Shown: positions 1,455 to 43,265 of the stretch, one piece after another
How positions within the stretch are numbered: position 1 is the stretch's first letter
Layout: every line of letters starts with the position of its first letter
Origin: Sedimentibacter sp.
GTDB lineage: Bacteria; Bacillota; Clostridia; Tissierellales; Sedimentibacteraceae
Assembly (NCBI RefSeq): GCF_032080165.1
Contig: NZ_DAMASY010000001.1
Location: 496,247 to 541,084, forward strand
DNA length: 44,838 nt
Reading direction: 5' to 3'
The notes under the pieces: generated by a model
The model's input: the letters and a program-made list of their open reading frames with translations, nothing else
What the model was told of the DNA's origin: nothing
The model's database searches: none
Made by a program: the position numbers and the translations under genes

Positions 1455-2297
1455 ATGAGTTTTTTTAGGAATAGAACAGTAGTTGGAGTGATTTGTATCG
1501 TATTGTCGCTCCTTATATGTTTTGGTATTACACCATTATTTAATAAAGGGATCAGTCAAAAGACAGAAATTGTGCGTGTGACAAAGGAGATAAAATCAGG
1601 TGATGAAATCACAAAGGATATGGTTCAAGTAGTAGAAGTAGGTGGATTTAATCTACCTGAAAATGTAATTCGTACCAAAGAAACAGTGATTGGTAAATAT
1701 GCAACTTCAGATTTGGGAATTGGAGATTATATTTTAAGTACAAAATTATCAGAAATACCAGCAGCTGAAAATACCTATTTATATAATCTAGATGGAAGTA
1801 AACAGGCAATGTCCATAACTATTAAGACCTTTGCAAATGGTCTTTCAGGAAAGCTACAAAGTGGAGATATTGTATCTGTTATTGCCCCTGATTATAAAAA
1901 GCAAGGTGCAACAGTTATTCCAGCAGAGCTTAAATATGTAGAGGTAATTTCTGTTACTGCCTCATCAGGATATGATGCTAATACAAATGAACAAGGAACA
2001 GAAGATGAAAGAGAACTTCCATCAACAGTAACACTCCTTGTAACCCCTGAACAAGGTAATATTCTAGCAGAATTAGAGGCGGATTCTAAATCACACCTAT
2101 CACTTGTATATCGTGGAAGTCCAGAGAATACAAAGAAATTTATTGATATGCAAGAAGAAATTATAGAAGCTCTCTATTATCCAGTATCAGAAAAACAAAC
2201 GGAAGAGGTATCTGAAGAAGAAATAATAGATGAGGTAATAGATAATTCAAACACATTCTCTGAAGGAGTAGAAGAAACAGGAAGTGAGGGAGAGTAA
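1455..2297 (+). CDS. cpaB: Flp pilus assembly protein CpaB/RcpC-like (N-terminal TM, SAF-like domain, acidic C-terminus)
   Basis: Strong RBS (AGGAGG). Single N-terminal TM helix, then a periplasmic/extracytoplasmic domain. Sits between the prepilin peptidase and the TadZ-like ATPase, as in Tad loci. Confidence 0.6.
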   Translation: MSFFRNRTVVGVICIVLSLLICFGITPLFNKGISQKTEIVRVTKEIKSGDEITKDMVQVVEVGGFNLPENVIRTKETVIGKYATSDLGIGDYILSTKLSEIPAAENTYLYNLDGSKQAMSITIKTFANGLSGKLQSGDIVSVIAPDYKKQGATVIPAELKYVEVISVTASSGYDANTNEQGTEDERELPSTVTLLVTPEQGNILAELEADSKSHLSLVYRGSPENTKKFIDMQEEIIEALYYPVSEKQTEEVSEEEIIDEVIDNSNTFSEGVEETGSEGE

Positions 2298-2298
2298 G

Positions 2299-3111
2299 AT
2301 GTTAAACTTTAAGAAAAACAGTATTTTTACTCGTGGTTCAAGGGATGAAAATATTAAAGAAGAAATCTTACATGGCGGAGTTTTAGCTGTTTGGGGGAGT
2401 CCCGGGAGTGGAAAAACAACAGTAGCCACAAAGATTGCAAAATATCTTGCTGATAAGAAAAAGAATGTAGTGCTGGTATTGTGCGATATGACAGCACCAA
2501 TGCTCTCATGCATCTGCCCGCCACAAGAACTTGAATGCGAAAAATCATTAGGAAGTATCCTTGCTGCAACCCATGTCACAGAGCCACTAGTAAAACACAA
2601 TATGATTACCCATAAAAAGCTGTCATATCTTACGATCCTTGGTATGTTAAAGGGAGAAAACGAATATACCTATCCGCCCTATTCAGAAATACAGGCAAGA
2701 GAGCTGTTTGATAGCCTTCGTGAAATCGCACCATTTATTATTATAGATTGTGGCAGTTATATCGCAAATGATGTACTATCTGCTGTCGCCCTAATGGAGT
2801 CTGATGCTGTATTAAGACTTGTTAATTGTGATTTGAAAAGTATCAGTTATTTATCAAGTCAATTACCTCTTCTTCGTGATGGAAAGTGGGATGCAGATAA
2901 GCAGTATAAAATAGCCTCTAACATTAAACCACAGCAAGGGGTAGACCATATGAGTCAAGCACTTGGAAGTGTAGCCTTTAAGCTTCCACATTCACAGGAA
3001 CTTGAGGAACAATACCTAGCTGGAAATCTCTTCGATGAATTATCCATGAAGGATAGTAAAGCTTTTCGTAAAGAAATAGAGAAGATAGCAAGGGAGGTGT
3101 TCGGATGTTAG
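2299..3111 (+). CDS. cpaE: CpaE/TadZ-like ParA/MinD-family ATPase of the Tad pilus system
   Basis: Deviant Walker A AVWGSPGSGKTTVATKIAKYLA. Lies immediately upstream of cpaF. ATG at 2299 preceded by GAGGGAG. Confidence 0.65.
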   Translation: MLNFKKNSIFTRGSRDENIKEEILHGGVLAVWGSPGSGKTTVATKIAKYLADKKKNVVLVLCDMTAPMLSCICPPQELECEKSLGSILAATHVTEPLVKHNMITHKKLSYLTILGMLKGENEYTYPPYSEIQARELFDSLREIAPFIIIDCGSYIANDVLSAVALMESDAVLRLVNCDLKSISYLSSQLPLLRDGKWDADKQYKIASNIKPQQGVDHMSQALGSVAFKLPHSQELEEQYLAGNLFDELSMKDSKAFRKEIEKIAREVFGC

Positions 3112-4712
3112 GTAAAAAAAGAGATAGTTCTGTGTTTCTAAACACAAAAGGGCAACAGAAAGTAGCACTTCCAAACGAAAATACAGAAAAAGATGAAACT
3201 GAGAGACATATATCTAATGTGAAAGATTTAAATGCAGCTAATGGAAACACTTCAGAGGCAAAAGTAGAATCAAAAGTCTTCAAAAGAGCAATTGAAATGC
3301 TGGAAGTTCAGGAAGTAGAGCAAGAAGTTCAAGAAACACAAAGGGAGTTAGGTTCTGAAAATAGAACTCACTCCCTATTTTTTACCCCTGAAACAGAGGG
3401 TAAGGACTTTTCTACTGTTCTAAAGGACGTTCAAGAATATATTTCAAGTAATTATTCTGTTCTTATTACTGATGGAACTATGAAGGATTCTAAAGAGCAG
3501 ATGAAACGATATATCTCTAAATACGTTCAGGACAGCAGAATCTCAGTAAAAGGTATGAGTGGCAATGAATTAATAGATGCACTTTATACTGAAATGGCTG
3601 AGTATGGTTTTTTAACAAAATATATTTATGGAGAGGGCATTGAAGAAATAGACATTAACTCATGGAAAGACATTGAAGTCCAGTATTCTGATGGAAGAAA
3701 TGAAAAACTTAAAGAAAATTTTGATTCTCCTGAACATGCAATTAATGTAATAAGAAGAATGCTCCATGTTTCAGGAATGGTACTTGATAATGCTAGTCCA
3801 GCTGTCCTTGGTCATCTTACAAAGAACATTCGTATTGCAGTGCTTAAAACTCCCTTAGTGGATGAAGATGTTGGTATTTCAGCCTCTATTCGTATTGTAA
3901 ATCCTCAAAGTATGAAAAAAGAGGACTTTGTAGATGGTGGTACAGCAACAAATCCTATGCTTGAATTTTTATCAGAGTGTATTCGCTATGGTATTTCTGT
4001 CTGTGTGGCAGGAGCAACCAGCTCTGGTAAAACAACAATTGCTGGATGGTTACTTACTACCATTCCTGATAATAAGCGAATATTTACTATTGAAAACGGC
4101 TCACGTGAGCTTGCCTTAGTTCGTGAACAAGAAGGAAGAGTAACTAATTCTGTTATTCATACCATAACACGTGACAGTGAGAATGAAAGGCAAAGAGTAG
4201 ATCAGATTACTTTGCTTGATATGTCTTTAAGATTTAATCCAGATATTATTGTAGTAGGGGAAATGCGTGGAGCAGAGGCTAATGCAGCACAGGAGGCAGC
4301 GAGGACAGGGGTAGCTGTTCTTACTACCATCCATTCAAACTCTTGTGAGGCAACCTATCGCAGAATGGTATCCCTTTGCAAGCGAGCAGTAGATATGTCA
4401 GATGAAACCCTAATGGGATATGTAACAGAGGCTTATCCTATTGTTGTGTTTTGTAAACAACTTGAAAATAAGGAAAGAAAGATGATGGAGATAATGGAAT
4501 GCGAGATCCTTCCAGATGGCAAAAGGAATTACCGTCCATTATATCAATATGTGATTACTGAAAATCGTATGGAGGGTGGGAAATTTATAATTAATGGTTA
4601 CCATGAGCAGATCAATAGCATTTCAGATAGCCTTAGTAAAAGATTCTTAGAAAATGGAATGCCAATTGATATCATAGAGAAATTGAAAACAAAGGAGGTG
4701 GAAACTATATGA
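3105..4712 (+). CDS. cpaF: CpaF/TadA type II/IV secretion ATPase (pilus assembly ATPase)
   Basis: Walker A VCVAGATSSGKTTIAGW. The IIVVGEMRGAEA box and the His box (TIHSNS) are typical of CpaF/VirB11-family ATPases. The N-terminal extension is common in Firmicutes CpaF. Confidence 0.85.
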   Translation: MLGKKRDSSVFLNTKGQQKVALPNENTEKDETERHISNVKDLNAANGNTSEAKVESKVFKRAIEMLEVQEVEQEVQETQRELGSENRTHSLFFTPETEGKDFSTVLKDVQEYISSNYSVLITDGTMKDSKEQMKRYISKYVQDSRISVKGMSGNELIDALYTEMAEYGFLTKYIYGEGIEEIDINSWKDIEVQYSDGRNEKLKENFDSPEHAINVIRRMLHVSGMVLDNASPAVLGHLTKNIRIAVLKTPLVDEDVGISASIRIVNPQSMKKEDFVDGGTATNPMLEFLSECIRYGISVCVAGATSSGKTTIAGWLLTTIPDNKRIFTIENGSRELALVREQEGRVTNSVIHTITRDSENERQRVDQITLLDMSLRFNPDIIVVGEMRGAEANAAQEAARTGVAVLTTIHSNSCEATYRRMVSLCKRAVDMSDETLMGYVTEAYPIVVFCKQLENKERKMMEIMECEILPDGKRNYRPLYQYVITENRMEGGKFIINGYHEQINSISDSLSKRFLENGMPIDIIEKLKTKEVETI

Positions 4713-5638
4713 GTACCATCTTGTTGATTGCCTGTATCGGAATGATTACAGGTTTTTTTATTTTATTTGGAATTTCACCCATTGAGTTTACGGAAGATAT
4801 ATTTAAAAAGCTGATGAGTAAACCAAGGAGCATAAAGGATGAGATTAATGAGACTACAAAACGAAAGAAAGTATCTTTTTTAAGACGTGAAATCATGGAA
4901 GTGCAAGGGATTTTAAAAGTAACAGGGAGAGAAAAGAAGTTTCCTATGCTTTGTGCCTTATCCTTGTTATTGTTTGCCATTGGAGGGTCTATTGCTATCA
5001 TGCTTAATAATTTTTTCTTAGTACCAGTTATGGCAATAGGCTTTATGTTTCTGCCATTTTGGTATGTAAGGCTTACTCAAAGTTATTTTAAAAGGGATAT
5101 TGCTGCAGAGCTTGAAACAGCACTGAGTATTATAACAACAGCTTATTTAAGAAACGAGGATATTCTTACAGCAGTTGAGGAAAACATGAACTACTTAAAT
5201 CCACCTGTATTGTCTGTATTTAAGGGTTTCGTTTCGAGGATAAAGCTAATAAATCCAGATATTATAGGAGCTTTGCAAGCTATGAAAGGACAGATTAATA
5301 ACGCTGTGTTTCGTGAATGGTGTGATGCTTTAATAGCCTGTCAGCTTGATAGAAGTTTAAAGACAACCTTAACACCTATTGTAAGTAAGCTATCGGATAT
5401 GCGTGTAGTAAATGGAGAACTTGAAAACATGGTCTTTGAACCAAGAAAAGAATTCATTACCATGGTTATATTAGTCATTGGAAATATACCTCTTTTGTAT
5501 TTTCTAAATAAAGACTGGTATCAAACGTTAATGCATACATCTCTGGGACAAATTATTCTTTCTATTTGTGCTATGGCTATTTTTATATCAACAGCTTTCG
5601 TAATTAAATTAACTCAACCAATTGAGTATAGGAGGTAG
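4709..5638 (+). CDS. tadB: TadB-like inner-membrane platform protein (T2SS-F domain)
   Basis: Polytopic membrane protein immediately after cpaF, with translationally coupled overlap. Size and hydrophobicity pattern match TadB. Confidence 0.65.
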   Translation: MSTILLIACIGMITGFFILFGISPIEFTEDIFKKLMSKPRSIKDEINETTKRKKVSFLRREIMEVQGILKVTGREKKFPMLCALSLLLFAIGGSIAIMLNNFFLVPVMAIGFMFLPFWYVRLTQSYFKRDIAAELETALSIITTAYLRNEDILTAVEENMNYLNPPVLSVFKGFVSRIKLINPDIIGALQAMKGQINNAVFREWCDALIACQLDRSLKTTLTPIVSKLSDMRVVNGELENMVFEPRKEFITMVILVIGNIPLLYFLNKDWYQTLMHTSLGQIILSICAMAIFISTAFVIKLTQPIEYRR

Positions 5639-5644
5639 CCGAAT

Positions 5645-6517
5645 ATGACATTCTTAATATTTACATTTGGCATACTACTTGCCATTGGTCTATTTCTAAT
5701 TTCTGCTGATTTGCTAAAATTGCCAAGCATTGCAACACAAAAGGCTATGTTATCTTCTGGTAAACAAGGGAAAGAAAAAGCTAAAACCGTAGATACACTT
5801 CTTATGGGATGGGCAGTAAGGATTGCTAAATATATTCCAATGGATGAGTATAAAAAAAGCAGAATGAAAAACACATTAAATGCTGCTGGAATGAACCTGA
5901 CTCCAGAAGAATTTATTTCATCAGCAATATTAAAGTCGGGAATAATTGCTCTACTATTTATCCCTTGCCTTATGATACTTCCACTTATTGCACCGATACT
6001 TATGTTTTTAAGCATTATAATATATTTCAAAGAAATCCGTAAAGCATATGAAATATTAAAGATAAAGAAAGAGAAAATTGAAGTGGAGCTACCAAGATTT
6101 GTAGCAACCATTACTCAGGAGTTAAAGGCAAGCAGAGATGTATTATCTATCTTAGAGAACTTTAAGAAAAATTCTGGAGAAGATTTTACAGATGAATTGG
6201 ATATCTTAACAGCAGATATGCGCTCTTCTTCTTATGAAGCAGCACTTACAAGGTTTGAGGCAAGGATTAATTCACCGATGCTATCGGATATAACGAGAGG
6301 GTTAATTGGTGTTCTTCGTGGAGATGATGGTTCCATGTATTTTCAAATGCTCTCCCATGATATGAAACAACTTGAGCTTCAAAGGTTAAAGGCACAGGCA
6401 ATGAAAATACCACCTAAGATTCGAGTGTTTTCTTTTGTAATGCTTATGTGTTTCTTAATGACCTATATGGCTATTATTGTATATGAAATTATACGTTCCC
6501 TTAGTGGAATGTTCTAG
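5645..6517 (+). CDS. tadC: TadC-like inner-membrane platform protein (T2SS-F domain)
   Basis: Second polytopic platform protein following tadB. It has an N-terminal TM, a cytoplasmic domain and C-terminal TMs. Confidence 0.65.
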   Translation: MTFLIFTFGILLAIGLFLISADLLKLPSIATQKAMLSSGKQGKEKAKTVDTLLMGWAVRIAKYIPMDEYKKSRMKNTLNAAGMNLTPEEFISSAILKSGIIALLFIPCLMILPLIAPILMFLSIIIYFKEIRKAYEILKIKKEKIEVELPRFVATITQELKASRDVLSILENFKKNSGEDFTDELDILTADMRSSSYEAALTRFEARINSPMLSDITRGLIGVLRGDDGSMYFQMLSHDMKQLELQRLKAQAMKIPPKIRVFSFVMLMCFLMTYMAIIVYEIIRSLSGMF

Positions 6518-9896: not shown

Positions 9897-9924
9897 ACAC
9901 TACAGAAAAAGAAAGGTGGATTTT

Positions 9925-10266
9925 ATGAAGATAAACAAGAAAATAGCACTAACAATGTGCATGGTGCTGATTGGTATATTGATGTTCAGCACTACAACAT
10001 TAGCTTCAGGTACAGGAGATGTTGCAGGGGCAATTGAAGATACTTGGAGTGATGCATCAGAACAGATAAAAACGGTTGTAAATAAGGTTGTGTTCCCTGC
10101 AATTGACCTTGTTTTAGCAGTATTCTTCTTTGCAAAACTAGGTACTGCTTATTTTGATTATAGGAAGCATGGACAATTTGAATGGGCGGCACCAGCTATT
10201 CTGTTTGCATGTTTGGTGTTTACACTAACAGCCCCAGCATATATATGGACGATACTTGGAATGTAG
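9925..10266 (+). CDS. small membrane protein, VirB2/TrbC-pilin-like topology (signal peptide + two TM helices)
   Basis: GGTGG RBS 5 nt before ATG 9925. Signal peptide ending in LASG, then two hydrophobic helices (FPAIDLVLAVFFFA and AAPAILFACLVFTLTAPAYIW). Fold-level guess only. Confidence 0.4.
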   Translation: MKINKKIALTMCMVLIGILMFSTTTLASGTGDVAGAIEDTWSDASEQIKTVVNKVVFPAIDLVLAVFFFAKLGTAYFDYRKHGQFEWAAPAILFACLVFTLTAPAYIWTILGM

Positions 10267-10471
10267 TAAATATAATAATTATATCAGATTGTCTTGATAT
10301 AGATAATTTGATATAATTATTTAAACTGAAAACTGGATGCCAGACGATCTAAAGATACTATATTTGCATGAAATAATCTTTAAATATCTAATAGATAATT
10401 AAGGTTATTGAGAATGATGCATGGAAATAGAATAACTACAGTGATAATTTTTAATAAAAAGAGGTGATTCA

Positions 10472-11749
10472 ATGATATATGTATGTATTGATACAAATGT
10501 ATATATTAACTTACTCACAGAAGTGATGGATACCGATGATACAGGGCAAAATGACGCACCTACTCAATTGGATGACTTGAATCTTCTATGTAAGGAAGGT
10601 GTTGTTACTGTATTAATACCGGAAGTTGTGAAACTAGAACTCCAAAAAGCTAACAATAAATTTGAAGTGGATTGTAAAAGAGAGTATTCTAAATTAATTG
10701 ATTACATAGATAAATACTCTACAAATTTATGGAGTGAAATTCGTGGTGTAGGAAAGAAAATTATAACTCTAATTGAAGATGAACAAGACAAGAAAATTCA
10801 TTATTGGATCAATGAGTATAGTAAGTTAATGACATTTTTTGCAAAGGATTATATACAACATATAGAATTAACCCCTGATATAATTTGCGAAGGTTATAAA
10901 AAGAAAATTGCTGGATTAATTACTGATAGCCAAATAAATGATGCATTAATAATAGAAAGTATTCATTGTTATTTTAAGCAACAAATATGGAATGATAATG
11001 ATCTGTTATTCTTTATTACTGGTGATAAAAAAGATTTCTTTGCTAAGGGAGAAGTAGCAGGTTTTAATATTTTAAAAAATAAATTTAAAATTCCTAATTC
11101 TAAATTATATGGATTGTATAATTTGAAGCAACTTTATAAATATATTAACGCTAATTTTGATGTTGGACTTCCAAAGGAAGAAATAGAAACGAAATGGAGT
11201 GAATTTGAAAAAAGATATCCAGAGTGGGATTTTGAAGATGATGAAGTTAGAGAAGAATATTGTAATATTGAAAAAGATATTAATTTAATGATTAATAAAT
11301 TATTTGAAAGTAAACTTCAAGATTTGCCTAAAGATATAATAGATATAAGGAAAAGAGTATTGAATGAAATAGAAACTATATTATTAAAATGTAGGAATAT
11401 GGTGTCATGGGATAATAGAAGTGAATTAAAGTTATATCAATGGTTAAATAGTAGGTCTGAAATAAATCTTTATTCTTCAAAATTAAGTGATTTGTTTTTG
11501 ATTCGAGATAATTTGCAAGAATACTTAAAGGTGCATGAAAAAATGGATGAAGAAATATTAGAAGGTCATAATTGGAAAAAATGCTGTAAATGTAATAAAA
11601 CATTTGTTTATCAAGTAAATGACATGAATGTACAAGGAGGCAAGGATAGAGAAGATATAATCTGCCCATATTGTAATGCAACAAATGGTTCAATTATTAC
11701 TGATGGTTTTATAAATACTTATAAAGCAGAAGAAATACTACAGATATAG
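10472..11749 (+). CDS. PIN-domain (N-terminal) protein with C-terminal CxxC...CxxC zinc ribbon; putative nuclease of unknown role
   Basis: PIN-like motifs: IYVCIDTNVYINLL (first Asp), LIPEVVKLEL (Glu), LLFFITGDKKDFF (TGD Asp). C-terminal zinc ribbon: CCKCNKTF...ICPYCNATNG. The gene is much more AT-rich than its neighbours. GAGGTG RBS. Confidence 0.55.
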   Translation: MIYVCIDTNVYINLLTEVMDTDDTGQNDAPTQLDDLNLLCKEGVVTVLIPEVVKLELQKANNKFEVDCKREYSKLIDYIDKYSTNLWSEIRGVGKKIITLIEDEQDKKIHYWINEYSKLMTFFAKDYIQHIELTPDIICEGYKKKIAGLITDSQINDALIIESIHCYFKQQIWNDNDLLFFITGDKKDFFAKGEVAGFNILKNKFKIPNSKLYGLYNLKQLYKYINANFDVGLPKEEIETKWSEFEKRYPEWDFEDDEVREEYCNIEKDINLMINKLFESKLQDLPKDIIDIRKRVLNEIETILLKCRNMVSWDNRSELKLYQWLNSRSEINLYSSKLSDLFLIRDNLQEYLKVHEKMDEEILEGHNWKKCCKCNKTFVYQVNDMNVQGGKDREDIICPYCNATNGSIITDGFINTYKAEEILQI

Positions 11750-11821
11750 TAAGTTGGAATTTTGGGAGTTGATTTTATATAAGAAAAATTAATTTTCAAC
11801 TTGTTAAGGTTAATTATCCTG

Positions 11822-11851
11822 GCACATCACATAAAATGGTGTGCTTTTTTT
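11822..11851 (+). terminator. rho-independent terminator (gcacatc...ggtgtgc + TTTTTTT)
   Basis: A 7-bp stem (with one G-U pair) followed by a 7-T run, directly after the PIN gene. Confidence 0.55.
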
Positions 11852-11874
11852 ATTGGAAGGGAGGCGATAGTTAA

Positions 11875-12777
11875 ATGTTTATCTGGGATTTTCTCTTAGG
11901 GGATGTAATGGATCAAATCATTGATTGGTTTTATGGTCAGCTTGTAGGTTTTCTTGCTGATTTCTTTGCCCAGATGGGAGATATGGGAGTGGAACTTTTT
12001 GAGATGAGTTGGGTTCAATCAATTGTTCTGTTCTTCTCCTATCTTGCATGGTCACTCTATGGAACAGGACTTGTAGTGTCCTGCTTTGAAACAGGAATTG
12101 AGTATCAATATGGTAGGGGCAACATGAAAGATGCTGCTTTAAATGCAATTAAAGGATTTATGGCAGTCAGTCTTTTTACTACAGTGCCTATAGAACTATA
12201 TAAGTTCTCGGTCAATTTACAAGCAAGTTTAACTGCTGGTATCACAGGGTACGGGAGTGGAATTGGTGTACTTGCAACATCTATTATTGGAGAGTTAAAT
12301 AATGTAGGTGATATTACAAACATAGGTGGTTCAGGTATATTCGGTGGCATTTCTATGATAACGAGTCCATTTATGGCTCTGTTTATTATTGTCCTAATGG
12401 GTTATGCAGTAATTAAAGTATTTTTTGCAAACCTAAAAAGAGGTGGGATTCTACTTATACAGATAGCAGTTGGAAGCCTATATATGTTTTCTGTCCCTCG
12501 TGGTTACATTGATGGCTTTATTCAATGGTGCAAGCAGATAATCGGATTGTGCCTTACTACATTTCTTCAGGCGACTATACTAACTGCAGGACTTATGGTA
12601 GTAAAAGATCATGCACTGCTCGGATTGGGATTAATGTTATCAGCAGGAGAAGTACCAAGGATTGCTGGTGCATTTGGACTGGATACATCAACTCGTGCAA
12701 ATGTAATGAGTGCAGTTTATACAGCACAGGCAGCTGTGAACACAACCAAAACTATAGTACAAGCAGTACCAAAATAA
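11875..12777 (+). CDS. polytopic membrane protein, possible VirB6/TrbL-like T4SS channel component
   Basis: GGAGG RBS. Multiple TM helices with Gly-rich loops. Position in the T4SS module fits VirB6, but the protein is short for VirB6. Confidence 0.45.
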   Translation: MFIWDFLLGDVMDQIIDWFYGQLVGFLADFFAQMGDMGVELFEMSWVQSIVLFFSYLAWSLYGTGLVVSCFETGIEYQYGRGNMKDAALNAIKGFMAVSLFTTVPIELYKFSVNLQASLTAGITGYGSGIGVLATSIIGELNNVGDITNIGGSGIFGGISMITSPFMALFIIVLMGYAVIKVFFANLKRGGILLIQIAVGSLYMFSVPRGYIDGFIQWCKQIIGLCLTTFLQATILTAGLMVVKDHALLGLGLMLSAGEVPRIAGAFGLDTSTRANVMSAVYTAQAAVNTTKTIVQAVPK

Positions 12778-12797: not shown

Positions 12798-13154
12798 ATG
12801 AAACTAATATATGTTGCATCTCCCTATAAAGGAGATATAAAAAAGAATATAGAATATGCGAAACAGGCTTGCCGATATGTATTAAACAAAGGCAATGCCT
12901 TTTTTTGTCCCCATCTTCTCTACCCCCAGATTTTAGATGATAATAATCCAGAAGAAAGAAAATTGGGAATCAACATAGGAAAAGAGTTTTTATCAAAATG
13001 CGATGAGCTATGGGTATTTGGTGAACATATTTCTCAAGGAATGTTTGAAGAAATTGAATTTGCTAGAGGGATAGGCATTCCTATAGAAAGAATTATGAAA
13101 CTAGATTTTGAAATAAAAGAAGAGGCTCCAATTTGTATGAGGATGGATAGTTGA
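12798..13154 (+). CDS. DUF4406/DUF1937-like (nucleoside 2-deoxyribosyltransferase-like fold) protein
   Basis: AGAGAGG RBS. N-terminus MKLIYVASPYKGD...N...A......G.....PH matches the small ICE/phage-associated DUF4406-type family. Translationally coupled to the methyltransferase. Confidence 0.5.
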   Translation: MKLIYVASPYKGDIKKNIEYAKQACRYVLNKGNAFFCPHLLYPQILDDNNPEERKLGINIGKEFLSKCDELWVFGEHISQGMFEEIEFARGIGIPIERIMKLDFEIKEEAPICMRMDS

Positions 13155-13813
13155 TTACTTTGGGGAGTCTTTTCGATGGGATTGGAGGATTTCCCCTTGC
13201 TGCTGTTCATAATGGAATTACTCCTATATGGGCAAGCGAAATTGAATCCTTTCCCATTGAGGTGACTAAAATACGATTCCCTGATATGCTCCATGTTGGT
13301 GATATTACAAAATTAAAAGGAGAAGATCTACCCCCTGTTGATATCATTACAGGTGGTTCACCATGCCAAGATTTATCTGTTGCAGGTGCAAGGGCAGGGT
13401 TTGCTGGTGAACGTTCAGGATTATTTATGGAGCAGATAAGAATAACAAAAGAAATGAGGTGGGCAGATGCAAGAAGAGGAAAGGCAAATCACCTTATCCG
13501 ACCTCGATACTTCGTTTGGGAAAATGTCCCTGGAGCATTCTCAAGTACAAACGGAGAAGACTTCAATGCGGTCCTTGAAGAAACCACAAGAATTGCAGAC
13601 AGCAGCGTATCTATACCTAGACCTCCGGGAGGGATATGGAAATCTGTTGGGTGCATATTGGGATATGAATTCACCATTGCTTGGAGAGTTCTTGATGCTC
13701 AATACTGGGGTGTCCCCCAAAGACGTAAAAGAATCTTTCTTGTCGCAGATTTTGGAGGACACACCGCACCCAAAATATTATTTGAGCAAGACAGCTTGTT
13801 TGGGAATACTTAG
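13151..13813 (+). CDS. DNA (cytosine-5)-methyltransferase, N-terminal catalytic part (motifs I-VIII) ending in a premature stop
   Basis: Motif I LFDGIGGF, motif IV GGSPCQDLS, motif VI ENV, motif VIII QRRKRIF. TTG start overlaps the upstream stop. The frame terminates at TAG 13811-13813. Confidence 0.65.
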   Translation: MITLGSLFDGIGGFPLAAVHNGITPIWASEIESFPIEVTKIRFPDMLHVGDITKLKGEDLPPVDIITGGSPCQDLSVAGARAGFAGERSGLFMEQIRITKEMRWADARRGKANHLIRPRYFVWENVPGAFSSTNGEDFNAVLEETTRIADSSVSIPRPPGGIWKSVGCILGYEFTIAWRVLDAQYWGVPQRRKRIFLVADFGGHTAPKILFEQDSLFGNT

Positions 13814-14888
13814 AAGAGCTAGAGCAAGAGGAAAGGAACTGCCTAAACAATTAAAAATTGCTTTAGAAATTCAAGGAGAAGCTGAAGGGGCGGAGGAAAA
13901 TTCTAATGACAATATGGTTACCGAATATAAAGCATATCATATTAATCAACGCAATGAGGGTATAGACCTAAATGGAATCTCAGGAGCCTTGATGGCAACT
14001 CAAAATAGGCAGATGCAGACATTTGTCACAGAACCTATGCTATGTCTGAATGATCAGGGTGGTGAACGAATGGATATAACAGAGAATATTACTTCAACAC
14101 TTCGAGCCAGTATGGGAGGAAATCAACCTATAGTCATGGCAACTCAGCAAGGTGGTGCAGAAATATGCGTTGACCTTTGTCCTACTATTACTTCAGCAGC
14201 AGGAACAAGCGGCAACAACCAACCTGTTCTATTTGATAATCATGCAAAAGACTGTAGATATAATGGTCCACTAAATGTAGCACCAACCATATCGGCCACC
14301 TATGGAACAGGAGGAAATAATGAACCATTAGTATCAAAATCAATTGATTCAGACAGTTATTGTATTGCGGGAAATACGATTGATAGACAAGATCATAACG
14401 GTGGAAATGGATGTGGATTTCAAGAGAATATCAGTTATACTCTTACTACCAGCGATATTCATGCTGTTTGCTATCCGTCTAAAACTTATCAAGATACAGT
14501 AGGAGCAATATGTGTGGGAGATGAAAAAGGCAATGGTAACCAATATGTTAGTCAAGACAAATGCATTGTAGACTGTGAAAAAATGACGTTTGGACAATCA
14601 GAATTTGGTAATTACAAAGAAGGTTGTGCAACACTCCGAGCAGAGGGTGGAGATAATGGAGGAGGAAGTGAAAACCTTGTAACTACTAAGAATCTTGTAC
14701 GCAGACTAACACCACTTGAATGTGAAAGACTTCAAGGCTTTCCAGATGGGTGGACTATAATAGAAAAGTCATCCGATAGTGCAAGATATAAGGCATTAGG
14801 TAATAGTGTAGCAATCCCATGTGTAGATTTTATTATGCAGGGGATTGCTTGTTTTTTAAGAAAATTTAAGGAAGAAACGGAGGAATAA
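13467..14888 (+). CDS. DNA (cytosine-5)-methyltransferase, C-terminal part (target-recognition region + motifs IX/X), in the +1 frame relative to 13151..13813
   Basis: Motif IX RRLTPLECERLQGFPDGWT and motif X ALGNSVAIPCV. The first ~90 codons of this ORF overlap the N-terminal ORF and are probably not genuine. Meaningful sequence begins near 13743 (SQILEDTPHPKYYLSKTACLGILRRARARGKELP). Confidence 0.6.
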   Translation: MQEEERQITLSDLDTSFGKMSLEHSQVQTEKTSMRSLKKPQELQTAAYLYLDLREGYGNLLGAYWDMNSPLLGEFLMLNTGVSPKDVKESFLSQILEDTPHPKYYLSKTACLGILRRARARGKELPKQLKIALEIQGEAEGAEENSNDNMVTEYKAYHINQRNEGIDLNGISGALMATQNRQMQTFVTEPMLCLNDQGGERMDITENITSTLRASMGGNQPIVMATQQGGAEICVDLCPTITSAAGTSGNNQPVLFDNHAKDCRYNGPLNVAPTISATYGTGGNNEPLVSKSIDSDSYCIAGNTIDRQDHNGGNGCGFQENISYTLTTSDIHAVCYPSKTYQDTVGAICVGDEKGNGNQYVSQDKCIVDCEKMTFGQSEFGNYKEGCATLRAEGGDNGGGSENLVTTKNLVRRLTPLECERLQGFPDGWTIIEKSSDSARYKALGNSVAIPCVDFIMQGIACFLRKFKEETEE

Positions 14889-29174: not shown

Positions 29175-31931
29175 ATGGCAAGAATTATTCTGAAGTGCCC
29201 GTACTTAAAAAGTGGAACGAAAAAAACTTCAGCTCATCTATCCAATCTTGTAACTTATATGGCTACCAGAAATGGTGTGAAAAAATTAACTGTGGAAAAT
29301 AAAAATCTTCCTTTTACTCAAAAGCAAGAGAAGCTTATAAATCAGATTATAAATGAATTTCCAAATACCAAAAACATATTTGAATACGAAGATTATGTTA
29401 AGAACAGAACCATTGAAAATGCATCGGATTTTATTTCAATTGCATTAGAACAAAACCTTGATAAAATTAATAAGCGAGAAAACTATGTCGATTATATTGC
29501 AAACCGGCCAAGGGTTGAAAGAATGGGTACGCATGGCTTGTTTACAGGTGGCGATGATGAAATTGTACTAAGCAGAATTTCAGAAGAAGTTGCTAATCAC
29601 ACAGGAAATGTGTGGACTCCCATAATTTCATTAAGGCGAGATGATGCCATACGTACAGGATTTGATAACGCTGAAGCCTGGCACAATATGTTATCCTATT
29701 ATGCACCAGAGATTGCGGAAAGTATGAAAATTCCTGTTGAAAACTTTAGGTGGTATGCAGCTTTTCATAATGAGAGTCACCATCCACATATTCATATGAT
29801 TTGCTATTCCGTTAACCCGATAGATGGATATCTAACGAAAAAGGGCATTGAAAAAATGAAGTCAGGTCTTGTAAAAAATATCTTCAAAAATGAGATGCAA
29901 TTAATTTATGCTGAACAGAGCCAAAGACGAGATAGGGTAAAAGCCGAGAGTAAAGAAATGCTTTTACAGCTTATTCAGGAGATGAAAATAGGAACGATTC
30001 AGAATACACAAATAGAGAAATTATTTTTAAATTTGACAGAGAGGTTGAAACATACCAAAGGCAAAAGAGTGTATGGATATTTGCAACCAAGTGTGAAAGC
30101 AATTGTTGATGAAATTGCAGATGAACTTTCCAAAGAAGAAAAAGTGTCTAAAGCTTATGAACTGTGGTATGAAATGCGAAACGAAGTGCTGAACAGTTAT
30201 ATGGATGAACCTTCAGAGCCACTACCATTATCAAAGCAGAAGGAATTTAAATCCATAAAAAATATAATTATTGCTGAGGCAGATAAACTTAGCAAAGGAG
30301 AAATTAGTTTTGTTGAAATTGAGAATATTGATACCTTTCTTTATAACAATGATTTTGCAGAATCAGATAACCCTGAAGTTGTTGAAGATACTGTAGATTT
30401 TGAGGTAATGGAAGATAACAATGCTGACGGGTTAGATACAGGACACATTTATGTGAAATGGACTAACGAGTATAAAATGGCTCGTGAGTATTTGTTTGGT
30501 ACAGATGAAATAGAACAGAATTTTAAAGTAACACTAGAATTATTTACGGAAGAATCAGTAAAAGGTAATGCTCTTGCGATGTTTGATATTGGTAGAATCT
30601 ATTCGGATGGTCTTGGTGTAGAAATCGATATGGACAAAGCTAATAATTATTATAAAAAGGCTCTTTCTAGATTTCAAAAAGTTGAATCACAAAAAGCATG
30701 GGAATATACAGAGTATCGTATTGGAAAGATGTATGCGCAAGGTCTTGGAACAGAGAAAGACTTAAAAACAGCAGCTTATTGGTTTAATTTATCTGCAGAA
30801 AAGAAATATAAGTATGCTCAGTATTCTCTTGGTGGTTTATATTACCGTGGGCAAGGAGTGGAACAAAATTTTCAAACATCCTTTTCATTGTATTTAAAAT
30901 CAGCAAATCAAGGGTTTCCTTATGCAGATTTTGAAGTTGCTAAAATGTATCGTGACGGTACTGGTATTGATAAAGATGCAAATGAAAGTAATCATTATTT
31001 TGAAAAAGCCTTTGTAGGTTTTGAAAAATTAGAAAAGCAAGGTTGTGATGATAAGATACAATACAGGTTGGGATGGATGCTTCAAAATGGAATTGGTACA
31101 AATAGAGATATTGCAAAAGCAAAAGAGTATTTTGGTAAGTCTGCAAAATTTGGAAACATTTTTGCCTGTTATTCATTAGCTAAGATAATACTTGAAGAAG
31201 ATAAACCAACTAATGAAGAAGTGAAAAAAGCAATTGATTATATGCATATAGCTTCAAACAGTGGGAATAAGTTCGCACAATACTCTCTCGGTAGAATTTA
31301 TCTGGAGGGTAAACATACCGCGAAAGATATTAATAAAGCAATAACATTATTAACTTTATTGGCTGAACAAGATAATGAGTTTGCAGCATATAAGTTAGGA
31401 ATGATTTATTTAAAAGATGAAGAAGTTACAAAGGATATAAATAAAGCAATTGCATTTATAACGCAATCAGCTGAAAAAAATAATGAATGGGCAAGTTATC
31501 AGCTAGGAAAATTGTACTTGATGGGCGTGGATATTCCCAAGGATACCGAAAAAGCGATTGAGTATCTTACAAAGTCAGCAGAACAGGGAAATCAATTTGC
31601 TCAGTATGTTCTTGGAAAGTTATTTCTGATTGGAAAGGATGTTCCGAAAGATAAAGAAACAGCAGTAAAATTTTTTACTCTATCGGCAGAGCAAGGAAAT
31701 GAGTATGCAAAATTTTTTCTTGAAAACATAGATAAGTTTCGAGAACCATCAGTAGGGTTATGTACATCTCGAGTGCTTCATCATATGAGTAAAATATTTG
31801 AGGATAATATACCGCTTAATAAATCTAAGGTAGGATTAAAAATTGATAGTAAACTACTTAGAAAGCTTAAAGGAAAGAAAATAGCTCAAGGACATAAGAG
31901 AGATGATCATGAAGAGAGGATGACTCTTTAA
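29175..31931 (+). CDS. conjugative relaxase (MobA/VirD2-type His triad) with C-terminal array of Sel1-like repeats
   Basis: Histidine triad HNESHHPHIHMI. A conserved N-terminal Tyr candidate (CPYLKSG). About eight C-terminal repeats of the form A.YxLGxxYxxGxGVxxDxxKAxxYxxKSA. Confidence 0.6.
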   Translation: MARIILKCPYLKSGTKKTSAHLSNLVTYMATRNGVKKLTVENKNLPFTQKQEKLINQIINEFPNTKNIFEYEDYVKNRTIENASDFISIALEQNLDKINKRENYVDYIANRPRVERMGTHGLFTGGDDEIVLSRISEEVANHTGNVWTPIISLRRDDAIRTGFDNAEAWHNMLSYYAPEIAESMKIPVENFRWYAAFHNESHHPHIHMICYSVNPIDGYLTKKGIEKMKSGLVKNIFKNEMQLIYAEQSQRRDRVKAESKEMLLQLIQEMKIGTIQNTQIEKLFLNLTERLKHTKGKRVYGYLQPSVKAIVDEIADELSKEEKVSKAYELWYEMRNEVLNSYMDEPSEPLPLSKQKEFKSIKNIIIAEADKLSKGEISFVEIENIDTFLYNNDFAESDNPEVVEDTVDFEVMEDNNADGLDTGHIYVKWTNEYKMAREYLFGTDEIEQNFKVTLELFTEESVKGNALAMFDIGRIYSDGLGVEIDMDKANNYYKKALSRFQKVESQKAWEYTEYRIGKMYAQGLGTEKDLKTAAYWFNLSAEKKYKYAQYSLGGLYYRGQGVEQNFQTSFSLYLKSANQGFPYADFEVAKMYRDGTGIDKDANESNHYFEKAFVGFEKLEKQGCDDKIQYRLGWMLQNGIGTNRDIAKAKEYFGKSAKFGNIFACYSLAKIILEEDKPTNEEVKKAIDYMHIASNSGNKFAQYSLGRIYLEGKHTAKDINKAITLLTLLAEQDNEFAAYKLGMIYLKDEEVTKDINKAIAFITQSAEKNNEWASYQLGKLYLMGVDIPKDTEKAIEYLTKSAEQGNQFAQYVLGKLFLIGKDVPKDKETAVKFFTLSAEQGNEYAKFFLENIDKFREPSVGLCTSRVLHHMSKIFEDNIPLNKSKVGLKIDSKLLRKLKGKKIAQGHKRDDHEERMTL

Positions 31932-35476: not shown

Positions 35477-35734
35477 TTGAGTTTCTTTGGAAATTTATAT
35501 CGAGAGGAACTTCCTTCTCGTGCAAAAATTGTTTATATGTATTTGAAAGACAGAAGCAATGCAGAGGGAGAATGTTGGCCGGCTATTAAAACCATTGCAA
35601 AAGATACTTCGTTGTCAAAGAGTACAGTAAAAAGAGCCATAGCAGATTTAATACACTGCGGTTTATTAACAAAGGAATCACGCTATCGGGAGAATGGCAG
35701 TAATTCTTCAAACCAATATTTTTTGAAAAAATAA
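35477..35734 (+). CDS. small helix-turn-helix protein (winged-helix/replication-initiator-like N-domain)
   Basis: AGGGAGGTG RBS, TTG start. ECWPAIKTIAKDTSLSKSTVKRAIADLIHCGLL is an HTH. Confidence 0.5.
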   Translation: MSFFGNLYREELPSRAKIVYMYLKDRSNAEGECWPAIKTIAKDTSLSKSTVKRAIADLIHCGLLTKESRYRENGSNSSNQYFLKK

Positions 35735-35939
35735 AAAAGAGTATACAATGTCTATGTGGAAGGGATAGTTTTCCGCCAAGGTACTATTATGCTTTTTTTG
35801 TGGACTGAGTTGGAGTTCACTATGAACTTACCAGAAGGAATCACTCTAATAATTTATTTAACAACAGAGAAATAATAATATATCTGTTATATATGTTTAC
35901 CTGTTCTGGCGTTAATAATAAATATATTTTAGATAACTA

Positions 35940-36156
35940 TAAAGGACACAGGTATTGGAATCCCAAATGAAGACTTAAAATATATTTTTGAAAGGTTTTA
36001 TAGAAGCGATTTATCAAGGAGTCGTCAAACCGGGGGAACCGGTATTGGACTTACAATTACAAAGGCATTGGTAGAAGTACATGGAGGAACTATTAAAATC
36101 CATAGTGAAGTTGGAAAGGGAACTAACGTAATAGTTGAATTTAATATATAAATTAT
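35940..36156 (+). pseudogene. orphan 3'-terminal fragment (about the last 70 codons, HATPase_c G1/G2 boxes) of a sensor histidine kinase gene; diverged duplicate of 42968..43187
   Basis: About 215 nt align collinearly with the 3' end of the intact HK gene, with about 9 mismatches. Homology begins abruptly at taaaggacac and ends just after the shared TAA stop. No upstream coding continuation exists. Confidence 0.75.
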
Positions 36157-36413
36157 TATTAATATTATACAAATTCTTTGTAAAACAGAATCACTATGTA
36201 ATTATTTCTACTCTGTTTTTTATCTATACATTGTAGCTATCTGTAATTCTTATAGTGAAGATGCTATTATGTGCAGATTAAATGTACAAATCATCTAAGT
36301 ATAAACTTAATATAATAATTAAAAAATTTTTTGACAAATATAATAAACGATATTACAATGAGTTAAATATATAAAACATATATGAATAGTATGTAATTAA
36401 AGGAGCGAACAAA

Positions 36414-36938
36414 ATGGCACATATTACACAAGTAAATTATGAAAATGCTTCCCCAGACGTAAAAGAACAATTTAATGATCAAATAAGGAGACATGGTAGA
36501 ATTACTAACATGAAAAAGACACTTTTACATTCCTTACCAGCATTTCATACATTAATGGAATGGTATACACTAGCTGAAGAAGTTGAAAAGTTCTTAGGTA
36601 AGAGAGCTGTAAATTTCTATAGCTATGCAATTTCAACACAGAATAGCTGTTTGATTTGCTCTACTTTCTTTGGTAAGATTTTAGAAGATTTAGATATAGA
36701 CTTTGACAACTTCTCATTTACAGAAGAAGAGTCCGATATTATTGAATACGGTCAGTATTTAGTAAAAGATCCAGGAAATATACCAGATAAATTATTTGAT
36801 AAACTAAAAAAGAGATATACAGAGGAGCAAATAGTATTATTAACAGCCTTTGGAAGCATGATGATCGCAACAAATCTTATAAATACAGCTTTAAAAGTTG
36901 AACTAGATGATATTTTAGTTCCATATACTAGGGGGTAA
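36414..36938 (+). CDS. carboxymuconolactone decarboxylase (CMD/AhpD-like) family protein
   Basis: AAGGAG RBS. Size and cysteine-containing core (NSCLICSTF) are compatible with the CMD family. Tentative. Confidence 0.45.
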   Translation: MAHITQVNYENASPDVKEQFNDQIRRHGRITNMKKTLLHSLPAFHTLMEWYTLAEEVEKFLGKRAVNFYSYAISTQNSCLICSTFFGKILEDLDIDFDNFSFTEEESDIIEYGQYLVKDPGNIPDKLFDKLKKRYTEEQIVLLTAFGSMMIATNLINTALKVELDDILVPYTRG

Positions 36939-36942
36939 TGAC

Positions 36943-40107: not shown

Positions 40108-40149
40108 ATCTCCTCATATTTACACTATCCTTTAATTGAATTAAATTTA

Positions 40150-40195
40150 TAAGCTGATAAAGTAATTTAAGATATCAATTGTCAGCTTTTTTATT
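40150..40195 (+). terminator. possible terminator after the ABC operon (long imperfect hairpin + TTTTTT)
   Basis: Arms aagctgata...tgtcagctt followed by a T-run. Confidence 0.35.
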
Positions 40196-40870: not shown

Positions 40871-40871
40871 A

Positions 40872-41830: not shown

Positions 41831-41831
41831 G

Positions 41832-43187: not shown

Positions 43188-43203
43188 ATTATAACCCCTT
43201 ATA

Positions 43204-43249: not shown

Positions 43250-43265
43250 TATTATTGTTTGTATT

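What the first reader, a model, noticed from the sequence alone, without database searches (positions are those of the whole stretch)
10472..11749. PIN-domain + zinc-ribbon protein inserted between T4SS structural genes (VirB2-like and VirB6-like)
A single AT-rich gene with its own terminator (11822-11851) interrupts the run of conjugation-apparatus genes. The N-terminus has the three acidic PIN positions (DTN, E, TGD). The C-terminus ends in a CxxC...CxxC zinc ribbon. PIN nucleases fused to nucleic-acid-binding zinc ribbons occur as toxin or defence effectors. On an ICE this could be an anti-phage or anti-plasmid exclusion nuclease, or an addiction module lacking an obvious antitoxin partner.
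Basis: partly seen in the sequence, partly recalled or inferred. Interest (0 to 1): 0.65.

Follow-up and report, generated by a model that had tools for sequence, protein, structure and literature searches.

The report
Cargo PIN nuclease in ICE hotspot
A stand-alone PIN-family nuclease gene has been dropped as optional cargo into a variable slot between two conjugation genes of a Clostridia-type conjugative element, and it is most likely an untested single-protein anti-phage or anti-invader nuclease, not part of the DNA-transfer machinery.

Summary
The ORF (10472-11749, 425 aa) is real and under purifying selection (dN/dS about 0.2). It has three parts: a PIN_12/DUF4935 nuclease domain with conserved acidic residues (D7, E51, D157, D185), a conserved helical module (CRxxxSWDxRSELKLYxWL), and a CxxC...CPYC zinc ribbon.

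It is cargo, not core. In 80 related elements the DUF3852-to-TrbL gap ranges from 75 bp (empty) to 3.8 kb and holds unrelated genes: AbiE, a HEPN-like protein, a group II intron, efflux genes and regulators. Only a few elements carry this gene.

One claim is wrong. The "own terminator" is a backbone hairpin that is also present at empty sites.

Outside ICEs, relatives lie beside AbiU/HEPN, SIR2, ToxN, Hachiman, R-M and CBASS genes, or at prophage edges. The helical module also occurs fused to a different nuclease head (DUF4365). There is no antitoxin gene or RNA.

The closest tested analogue is Cosus (Brc24), a single-protein PIN_12 anti-phage system. It shares only the PIN_12 domain.

Best reading: a new architectural variant of single-protein PIN-nuclease defence. 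The defence function is inferred, not shown.

The parts
9916..10266 (+). Left flank: DUF3852 gene (VirB2/TrbC-like small membrane protein), ICE backbone
   Evidence: Pfam DUF3852 E 1.8e-46 and weak TrbC/VirB2 E 6e-4. 75-98% identical in the 46 related loci where it was detected.
10267..11800 (+). Inserted cargo cassette (about 1.53 kb, 25.7% GC) carrying the PIN gene and its 5' region. It starts directly after the DUF3852 stop codon. The right edge is approximate (11795-11818).
   Evidence: Homology to the empty-site elements L023, L017 and L025 stops at about 10270 and resumes at about 11819. GC values. The cassette begins at the same point in L089, L100 and L043.
10274..10321 (.). Inverted repeat (21-nt arms, 90% complementary, 6-nt loop) at the left end of the cassette. 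It overlaps the promoter-like site and could be an operator or a hairpin.
   Evidence: the repeat finder I1. Conserved with the cassette in L043, L089 and L100.
10289..10317 (+). Sigma-70-like promoter candidate: TTGTCT, 17-nt spacer, TATAAT with an extended -10 TG. This is a consensus match only.
   Evidence: The number of such sites in the region equals the shuffle expectation, so this is weak evidence.
10460..10467 (+). Shine-Dalgarno sequence AGAGGTGA, 4-5 nt before the ATG
   Evidence: Read directly from the sequence.
10472..11749 (+). CDS of 425 aa: PIN_12 nuclease domain, helical module and zinc ribbon
   Evidence: ORF. dN/dS 0.16-0.23 against five homologous genes. AlphaFold model pLDDT 86.9, pTM 0.78.
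10472..11161 (+). PIN_12 (DUF4935) domain, aa 1-230. Putative catalytic residues D7, E51, D157, D185 (plus D188). Long helical hairpin insert at aa 51-123.
11174..11566 (+). All-helical C-terminal domain, aa 235-365. Its conserved core is aa 283-365 (C307-R308, S312-W313, R316-S317-E318-L-K-L-Y, W324, H355). Proposed regulatory or sensor module.
   Evidence: Invariant columns. No informative structural match. The same module is fused to DUF4365 in P0167 and to a Cys/His-rich domain in P0153.
11567..11746 (+). Zinc-ribbon tail, aa 366-425 (C371, C374, C398, C401). Optional and clade-specific.
   Evidence: Alignments A1 and A3. Absent from L021, L089 and distant homologues. 50% identical over 48 aa to a 59-aa prophage protein, P0178.
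11821..11851 (+). Backbone hairpin and T-run (terminator-like). It belongs to the ICE, not to the cassette.
   Evidence: Terminator scan. The same hairpin follows the DUF3852 stop in L017, L023 and L025, which have no PIN gene.
11875..12777 (+). Right flank: TrbL_5 (VirB6-like) gene, ICE backbone
   Evidence: Pfam TrbL_5 E 1.5e-148. 77-98% identical in 80 related loci.

Best explanation
The gene is optional cargo. It sits in a variable-DNA hotspot of a Clostridia/Tissierellia-type conjugative element, exactly between the stop codon of the DUF3852 pilin-like gene and the backbone hairpin that precedes trbL.

It encodes a solitary three-part protein:
- An N-terminal VapC-like PIN_12 metal-dependent nuclease head.
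- A conserved helical module. The same module is also found behind other nuclease heads, so it most likely controls or targets the nuclease (sensor or autoinhibitor).
- In this clade only, a zinc ribbon that probably adds nucleic-acid or protein binding.

The most likely function is a single-protein immunity or conflict system. The nuclease would be held inactive until an invading phage (or other foreign element) is sensed. It would then cut RNA or DNA to block the invader or abort the infection, protecting the ICE's host and therefore the ICE.

What is shown: the gene is real and under selection, it has a PIN_12 fold and motifs, it is cargo at a hotspot, relatives lie in defence or mobile-element contexts, the module is re-used, and there is no partner gene.

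What is inferred: nuclease activity, the substrate, the trigger, and the defence phenotype.
For: Cargo, not core:
- Both genes were detected in 46 of the 80 related loci. There the DUF3852-to-TrbL gap is 75-233 bp (empty) in six (L017, L019, L023, L025, L027, L031) and 448-3855 bp with unrelated genes in the others.
- Cargoes verified by Pfam include AbiEi/AbiEii (L087), a weak HEPN protein (L033) and a group II intron RT (L029).
- PIN homologues occupy the same slot only in L021, L089, L043 (a degraded copy) and L100.
- The insert is 25.7% GC against 37.4% for the flanks.

Real, selected PIN protein:
- PIN_12 hit above the gathering threshold.
- D7, E51, D157 and D185 are conserved.
- dN/dS is 0.16-0.23.

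Defence or mobile-element neighbourhoods of relatives:
- AbiU/AIPR, HEPN_RiboL-PSP, a dCTP-deaminase-like gene and a KAP NTPase (L002).
- SIR2_2, CTD8 and DUF6932 (L004).
- ToxN on a small mobilisable element (L009).
- A prophage lysis end (L015) and a prophage edge (L001).
- Hachiman HamA plus helicase (L096).
- R-M plus CBASS (L111).

Module re-use: the C-terminal module is fused to DUF4365 in P0167 and to a different Cys/His-rich head in P0153.

No partner: there is no antitoxin-sized ORF, no tandem repeats and no Rfam hit in the cassette.

Precedent: Cosus/Brc24 is a single PIN12-domain protein that blocks T7, and T12A, D14A and D96A mutants lose protection (bioRxiv 10.1101/2024.07.02.601719). 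My stitched Brc24 hits the same Pfam model at E 2e-30.

Matelska et al. 2017 (PMC5499597) noted that DUF4935 genes are usually monocistronic.
Against: - There is no experimental evidence for this protein or its roughly 45-cluster subfamily.
- PADLOC (2023 models) gives no hit.
- There is no detectable direct sequence similarity to Cosus beyond the shared Pfam model, and the C-terminal halves are unrelated.
- The hotspot also carries non-defence cargo (by eye, not scanned: MATE efflux, AraC-type regulators, TauE, methionine aminopeptidase, a nitroreductase-like gene). Location in the hotspot alone therefore does not imply defence.
- Guilt by association rests on about ten contexts, not on a statistical enrichment test.
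- Some relatives (L001, L012) have no recognisable defence neighbours.
- The short-form clade in C. butyricum and C. neonatale has a conserved 525-544-aa downstream partner. The family is therefore not always solitary, and this form might have lost or replaced a partner.
Confidence: 0.55

Rival explanations
1. Inter-element competition nuclease. The protein targets incoming plasmids, competing ICEs or phage satellites, not lytic phages, and so acts as an exclusion or interference factor for the resident ICE.
For: The gene is carried on conjugative and mobilisable elements (window; L100; L009 mobilisable element with RepA_N and NikA/MobC). The nuclease head and zinc ribbon are compatible with nucleic-acid targeting. 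This reading differs from the best explanation only in the target.
Against: Many relatives are chromosomal, in defence islands or beside prophages, and not on conjugative elements. VapC-like PINs are typically RNases, which fits abortive infection better than DNA exclusion (established knowledge; structural neighbours). No known ICE exclusion system uses PIN_12.
Confidence: 0.13
2. Orphan toxin or addiction module. The PIN domain is a growth-arresting toxin whose activity is masked in cis by the C-terminal domains, or in trans by an unrecognised factor, and this stabilises the ICE after segregation.
For: The fold is VapC-like. A ToxN toxin lies next to one homologue. Cosus carries a fitness cost when highly expressed.
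Against: There is no antitoxin ORF of 40 aa or more in the cassette, no tandem RNA repeats and no Rfam family. A single polypeptide cannot easily give the differential stability needed for addiction. The gene is absent from most sister ICEs, truncated in L021 and L089, and degraded in L043, with the element persisting in each case.
Confidence: 0.1
3. Dedicated conjugation or ICE-housekeeping factor, for example an RNase that processes the long T4SS operon transcript between the pilin-like gene and trbL, or a DNA-processing accessory.
For: The gene is co-oriented with, and embedded in, the T4SS operon, upstream of the backbone hairpin.
Against: Six related elements with an empty junction, and many with unrelated cargo there, carry no PIN homologue in the fetched flanks. 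Most family members are not next to conjugation genes at all. The GC content marks the insert as foreign.
Confidence: 0.04
4. Counter-defence or establishment factor, expressed to degrade recipient defence RNAs or host transcripts after transfer.
For: Conjugative elements do carry anti-defence genes. This ICE also carries a conserved C5 methylase nearby, which is plausibly anti-restriction.
Against: The gene is not in a leading-region position next to the relaxase or oriT (the relaxase is at 29175-31931). The chromosomal defence-island contexts of relatives do not fit an establishment role.
Confidence: 0.05

Closest known systems
Pfam PIN_12 / DUF4935 (PF16289), VapC-like group of the PIN-like superfamily (Matelska et al. 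2017, PMC5499597)
   Same: Full-length match to the profile above the gathering score. About 350-430 aa, with the PIN domain at the N-terminus. Conserved acidic residues. A long helical insert after strand 2. Monocistronic organisation.
   Different: It is a divergent member at 35.6 bits, and some close relatives fall below Pfam detection. [quoted passage not shown]
Cosus (Brc24), a single-gene PIN12-domain anti-phage system of mobile integrons (bioRxiv 10.1101/2024.07.02.601719)
   Same: A single protein with an N-terminal PIN_12 domain, carried as cargo on a mobile element. The local motifs are parallel: ITID14N vs CID7TN, FPD153AIALL vs IND157ALII, SQD177KGW vs TGD185KKDF.
   Different: There is no direct sequence similarity to the window protein or its family profile. 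The C-terminal half is unrelated, being beta-rich and acidic in Brc24. Cosus is a proteobacterial integron cassette, whereas this is in a Firmicutes ICE hotspot. A phenotype has been shown only for Cosus.
VapC toxins of type II VapBC toxin-antitoxin systems
   Different: There is no VapB-like antitoxin gene. The protein is three times larger, with a 70-residue helical insert and two extra domains. It is not an operon pair.
Variable-DNA hotspots of conjugative elements and phages (SXT/R391 ICE hotspots, PMC4147863; P2/P4 defence hotspots, PMC9122126)
   Same: A conserved backbone with one precise intergenic point, and alternative cargo that includes abortive-infection and TA genes.
   Different: This is a different element family: a Firmicutes ICE with a MobL relaxase and Tad-like pilus genes. 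The hotspot is inside the T4SS operon, immediately after the pilin-like gene's stop codon. The cargo is a mixture of defence and non-defence genes.

Membership tests
Pfam PIN_12 / DUF4935 | HMM match at or above the curated gathering score, covering the profile | tested here: met
   35.6 bits against a cutoff of 32, E 1.5e-8, residues 4-189 covering profile positions 1-172 of 172.
Pfam PIN_12 / DUF4935 | PIN (Rossmann-like alpha/beta) fold | tested here: met
Pfam PIN_12 / DUF4935 | Conserved acidic metal-binding residues | tested here: met
   D7, E51 and D157 are invariant, and D185 and D188 are at least 90% conserved, in 23 sequences that go down to 33% identity.
Pfam PIN_12 / DUF4935 | Metal-dependent nuclease activity | not testable with these tools
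   Needs biochemistry.
Cosus (Brc24) defence system | Sequence homology to Brc24 along the protein | tested here: not met
   BLASTP and the A1 profile against a Brc24 stitched from OCR text gave no significant match. The only link is that both hit Pfam PIN_12. Caveat: the Brc24 sequence was reconstructed from an OCR table that contains frameshifts.
Cosus (Brc24) defence system | Anti-phage phenotype that depends on PIN residues | not testable with these tools
   Shown for Brc24 only.
VapBC type II toxin-antitoxin | Adjacent co-transcribed antitoxin gene | tested here: not met
   The only + strand ORF of 20 aa or more lying wholly in the 205-nt upstream region is a 21-aa ORF (10337-10402); two 37-38-aa ORFs lie on the opposite strand. 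There is nothing downstream before the backbone hairpin.
Type III toxin-antitoxin (ToxIN-like) | Tandem RNA repeats next to the toxin gene | tested here: not met
   No tandem repeat families in 10200-11900. No Rfam hit at E up to 1.
Core T4SS / conjugation component of this ICE family | Uniform presence at a conserved position in related elements | tested here: not met
   A PIN homologue was detected in 3 of 80 related loci, plus L100. Six loci have an empty junction and more than 25 have other cargo there.
Known defence systems in PADLOC-DB v2 (2023) | HMM match to any model | tested here: not met
   0 families at E up to 10. The database predates Cosus.

The most novel reading that the evidence does not exclude
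The helical SWDxRSELKLY module may be a previously unrecognised sensor or regulatory domain that defines a modular family of single-protein immune nucleases. In this family, interchangeable heads (PIN_12, DUF4365/PD-(D/E)xK-like, a Cys/His-rich HNH-like domain) are coupled to one trigger-sensing tail. In the ICE-borne clade, the added zinc ribbon would be a domain shared with, or captured from, a small late-expressed lambdoid-phage 'moron' protein. It could act as a bait or mimic that links activation to a phage or host factor.
Probability: 0.22. Interest if true: 0.7.

Novelty: new variant of a known kind. Interest (0 to 1): 0.42.

Why it matters
If confirmed, this would extend the newly reported single-protein PIN_12 defence type (Cosus) to anaerobic Firmicutes, with a different control architecture. 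It would add a re-usable regulatory module that is found with several nuclease heads.

It would also identify a precise cargo hotspot inside the T4SS operon of a widespread Clostridia/Tissierellia ICE family, through which immunity genes (AbiE, HEPN, PIN) and resistance or efflux genes travel together.

The practical value is a short list of compact candidate defence genes and a comparative handle for mining more: the DUF3852-trbL junction. None of this overturns current concepts, because ICE hotspots and nuclease-based abortive systems are well established.

Tried and rejected
- PADLOC, NCBIfam and PDB sequence searches of the protein returned nothing useful.
- Foldseek against PDB and BFVD gave only weak PIN hits for the whole chain. 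The C-terminal domain has no informative structural neighbour. AFDB50 was not available.
- The word-indexed search with the C-terminal module alone returned only short standalone or fragmentary copies, not a survey of fusions.
- tblastn against phage and plasmid collections found no family members. The only hit was a zinc-ribbon match in a Klebsiella phage.
- The direct Cosus comparison was limited by an OCR-corrupted sequence. I stitched the frames by hand, guided by the mutagenesis primers, so only Pfam-level and motif-level statements are safe.
- I tested whether the large unknown neighbours of homologues (544, 525, 1088 and 690 aa) form one partner family or have a relative in the window. 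They do not; only the C. butyricum and C. neonatale pair are related to each other.
- I rejected the 'own terminator' claim and the 'core conjugation protein' reading.
- A literature search for DUF3852, DUF4320 and DUF6550 found nothing.

Full report
**1. The observation**

- The window has a 425-aa ORF at 10472-11749 (+). It is preceded by a strong Shine-Dalgarno sequence (AGAGGTGA, 10460-10467).
- GC drops to about 26% across the gene, against 34-38% on either side. The segment 10267-11800 is 25.7% GC, against 37.4% for the flanking genes.
- The upstream gene (9916-10266) is a DUF3852 protein with weak TrbC/VirB2 similarity. The downstream gene (11875-12777) is TrbL_5, which is VirB6-like.
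- The rest of the window is a conjugation module: RcpC/CpaB, a TadZ-like ATPase, a CpaF-like T2SSE ATPase, a VirB4-like ATPase, an NlpC/P60 hydrolase, a MobL relaxase, a DUF3991-Toprim protein and a VirD4 coupling protein.
- No integrase lies in the window. However, close relatives of the element are embedded in chromosomes, so 'ICE' is reasonable.

**2. The protein**

- Pfam PIN_12 (PF16289, formerly DUF4935) matches residues 4-189 over the whole profile, at 35.6 bits against a cutoff of 32. PADLOC, NCBIfam and PDB sequence searches are negative.
- An AlphaFold model built on 23 homologues is confident (pLDDT 86.9, pTM 0.78). It shows three parts:
  - An alpha/beta PIN core (aa 1-230) with a long helical hairpin insert (aa 51-123).
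  - An all-helical domain (aa 235-365).
  - A beta-rich ribbon (aa 366-418).
- In the alignment of 23 homologues, which go down to 33% identity, D7-T8-N9, P50-E51, E56, W87, E89 and D157 are invariant. D185, K187 and D188 are at least 90% conserved. These positions fall at the canonical PIN locations in the model: the end of beta1, after beta2, the helix after beta3, and after beta4.
- A second very conserved block lies in the helical domain: C307-R308, S312-W313, R316-S317-E318-L-K-L-Y322, W324 and H355.
- The CxxC...CPYC tail (C371, C374, C398, C401) exists only in the closest clade, at 66% identity or more.
- dN/dS against five homologous genes is 0.16-0.23 and is below 0.55 in each domain. 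All three parts are therefore under purifying selection.

**3. Family size**

- Only 22 clusters at 90% identity were found among 5.8 billion proteins, nearly all from Clostridium-like sources.
- A full HMM scan of 1.84 billion representatives found 495 hits at E up to 1e-3. Only about 45 of these (E up to 1e-30) match across both the PIN domain and the helical module. The rest share only the PIN_12 region.
- Several distant hits are confirmed PIN_12 members by Pfam.

**4. Cargo or core?**

I fetched 80 related elements using the TrbL_5 protein (77-98% identity). In each I located DUF3852, TrbL and any PIN homologue.

- The DUF3852-stop to TrbL-start distance is 75-76 bp in L017, L023 and L025, and 120-233 bp in L019, L027 and L031.
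- It is 448-3855 bp elsewhere, and 1608 bp in the window.
- The occupied junctions hold unrelated genes:
  - Verified by Pfam: AbiEi/AbiEii (L087 group), a weak HEPN protein (L033) and a group II intron RT-maturase-HNH (L029).
  - Identified by eye only: MATE efflux with an AraC regulator, TauE, methionine aminopeptidase, a nitroreductase-like gene and small membrane proteins.
- PIN homologues (about 77% identity) occupy the same slot only in:
  - L021 and L089, a 367-aa form without the zinc ribbon.
  - L043, split into 139-aa and 202-aa pieces that lack the catalytic middle, so a pseudogene.
  - L100, 97% identical, with TetR, AMP-binding and BlaI-like cargo stacked upstream.
- The junction is therefore a cargo hotspot, and the PIN gene is one dispensable alternative. 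This rules out the 'core conjugation component' possibility.

**5. The 'own terminator'**

- The hairpin GGCACATCACATAAAATGGTGTGC followed by a T-run at 11821-11851 is real.
- In the empty-site elements, however, the DUF3852 stop codon is followed within about 20 nt by the same hairpin, and then by the trbL ribosome-binding site.
- Homology between the window and L023 ends at about 10270 and resumes at about 11819.
- The cassette was therefore inserted between the pilin-like gene's stop codon and a pre-existing backbone terminator or attenuator. The hairpin is not part of the cassette.
- The cassette brings its own 205-nt leader. This has a promoter-like TTGTCT-17-TATAAT site with an extended -10 (10289-10317; a consensus match only). 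A 21-nt inverted repeat overlaps it (10274-10321).
- In L043 and L100 the last 21 nt of DUF3852 (TGGACGATACTTGGAATGTAG) are duplicated immediately before the cassette, with additional cargo lying upstream. This suggests repeated insertions at the same point.

**6. Partner genes**

- No ORF of 40 aa or more lies in the leader or the trailer. There are no tandem repeats and no Rfam family. This argues against a type II or type III toxin-antitoxin organisation.
- A short-form clade in C. butyricum and C. neonatale does have a conserved, overlapping or adjacent 525-544-aa downstream gene with no Pfam or PADLOC match.
- That partner is unrelated to the neighbours of other homologues and has no relative in the window.

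**7. Contexts of relatives outside ICEs**

- L002: AbiU/AIPR, a dCTP-deaminase-like gene, HEPN_RiboL-PSP and a KAP NTPase.
- L004-L008: SIR2_2, CTD8 and a DUF6932 nucleotidyltransferase.
- L009-L011: a small integrase/RepA_N/NikA mobilisable element in which ToxN follows the PIN gene.
- L015: immediately after a prophage holin and amidase.
- L001: the edge of a prophage.
- L012: a RadC/DUF960/HTH island.
- L096-L099: a copy of the helical module beside Hachiman HamA and its helicase.
- L111: P0153, a different N-terminal head with the same module, beside a C5-methylase/BpuJI-type R-M system and a CBASS SMODS cyclase.

Five of the eight informative non-ICE contexts contain recognised defence systems within a few kb. 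This is suggestive, but it is not a formal enrichment test.

**8. Module re-use**

- The helical module occurs behind a DUF4365 (PD-(D/E)xK-like) head in P0167 (Pfam E 4.7e-22).
- It also occurs behind a Cys/His-rich head that looks HNH-like by eye in P0153. That head has no Pfam match.
- One tail with interchangeable nuclease heads is the pattern expected of an effector-plus-sensor immune protein.

**9. Literature**

- Matelska et al. 2017 (PMC5499597) classified DUF4935 as a VapC-group PIN of unknown function. They describe proteins of about 350 aa with a helical insert after strand 2, usually monocistronic.
- A 2024-25 preprint (10.1101/2024.07.02.601719) reports Cosus (Brc24), a single PIN12-domain protein on mobile integrons. 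It abolishes T7 plaquing, and T12A, D14A and D96A mutants lose most of the protection.
- I recovered the gcu24 DNA from the preprint's Table S3. It is corrupted by OCR. A hand-stitched protein of 383 aa hits PIN_12 at E 2e-30.
- That protein shows no direct similarity to the window protein or its family profile, and its C-terminal half is unrelated.
- The local catalytic motifs are parallel, at D14/D7, D153/D157 and D177/D185.
- Cosus is therefore a functional analogue at the level of the nuclease domain, not an orthologue.

**10. The zinc ribbon**

- The tail is 40-50% identical, without gaps, to 59-aa stand-alone proteins of Klebsiella and E. coli lambdoid phages and prophages. The pairwise result is 52.8 bits.
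- These phage genes lie between the Q antiterminator and the lysis genes.
- The meaning of this is unknown. It shows that the tail is a separable module shared with phages.

**11. Verdict**

- The gene is accessory cargo in an ICE hotspot. It encodes a divergent, selected PIN_12 nuclease with a re-usable helical module and a clade-specific zinc ribbon.
- The best-supported function is a single-protein anti-phage or anti-invader nuclease (confidence about 0.55).
- The alternatives considered are inter-element exclusion, an orphan toxin, a conjugation role (largely excluded) and counter-defence.
- It is a new architectural variant of a known kind. Interest is moderate.

Noticed in passing
window 13151-13813 and 13467-14888: A C5 cytosine DNA methylase is encoded as two overlapping ORFs in different frames: N-terminal motifs in one and C-terminal motifs in the other. 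The same two-frame arrangement is conserved at 94-98% aa identity in L016, L017, L018, L023 and L025 (79-90% in L030). It is therefore not a sequencing error. It may be a split two-subunit methylase or a programmed frameshift.
   Followed up: partly
window 11567-11746; L101 1414-1653; L102-L108: The zinc-ribbon tail is 40-50% identical, without gaps, to 59-aa stand-alone proteins of Klebsiella and E. coli lambdoid phages and prophages. Those genes lie in the 'moron' slot between the Q antiterminator and the holin/lysis genes.
   Followed up: partly
P0167 (L110), P0153 (L111 243-1142), P0159 (L096 330-743): The conserved helical SWDxRSELKLY module also occurs behind a DUF4365 head and behind a Cys/His-rich head. 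The carriers lie next to R-M plus CBASS (L111) and Hachiman (L096).
   Followed up: partly
L043 2655-2760; L100 4840-4960: The last 21 nt of the DUF3852 gene are duplicated immediately upstream of the PIN cassette wherever a second cargo block has been inserted. Both junctions share a '...TGCAAGGAT' sequence before the duplicate. This looks like repeated, possibly site-directed, insertion at the 3' end of DUF3852.
   Followed up: partly
L043 2872-3886: In Tissierella simiarum the PIN gene is split into 139-aa and 202-aa ORFs and lacks the region with D157 and D185. It is a decaying copy in the same hotspot.
   Followed up: yes
L004 11046-12680; L012 11071-12648: Short-form PIN_12 homologues in C. 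butyricum and C. neonatale are followed by a conserved 525-544-aa protein (93% identical between the two species). It has no Pfam or PADLOC hit and contains an 'IVIEAKS' stretch that resembles a PD-(D/E)xK motif by eye. This may be a two-gene version of the system.
   Followed up: partly
L035, L036, L037, L040, L044, L045, L048, L049, L050, L094 (immediately upstream of TrbL; 10 of the 13 member loci, the ones identifiable): In 13 more distant relatives of the ICE, a conserved ORF of about 145-159 aa with no Pfam match fills the DUF3852-TrbL gap (516-541 bp where it is the only occupant). It is probably a lineage-specific backbone gene and not cargo.
   Followed up: no
window 20001-21500, 35500-37000 and 39500-43500: There are further low-GC (26-31%) islands in the window. 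One holds a 299-aa ORF (20072-20971) with no Pfam or PADLOC hit. Another holds an ABC-ATPase (39370-40107) that hits PADLOC mad3 at 3e-41, probably a generic ABC match, followed by a histidine kinase. These may be additional cargo regions.
   Followed up: no
window 1455-6517 with 9916-12777 and 21561-23381: The element combines Tad/Flp-type pilus genes (RcpC/CpaB, TadZ-like, CpaF-like ATPase, a weak TadB/C-like T2SSF match) with VirB4, VirB6 and VirD4-type T4SS genes and a MobL relaxase carrying eight Sel1 repeats.
   Followed up: no
window 10274-10321: A 21-nt inverted repeat overlaps the promoter-like site of the cassette. It is conserved together with the cassette in L043, L089 and L100. 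It could be an operator for an unknown regulator or an AT-rich hairpin.
   Followed up: no
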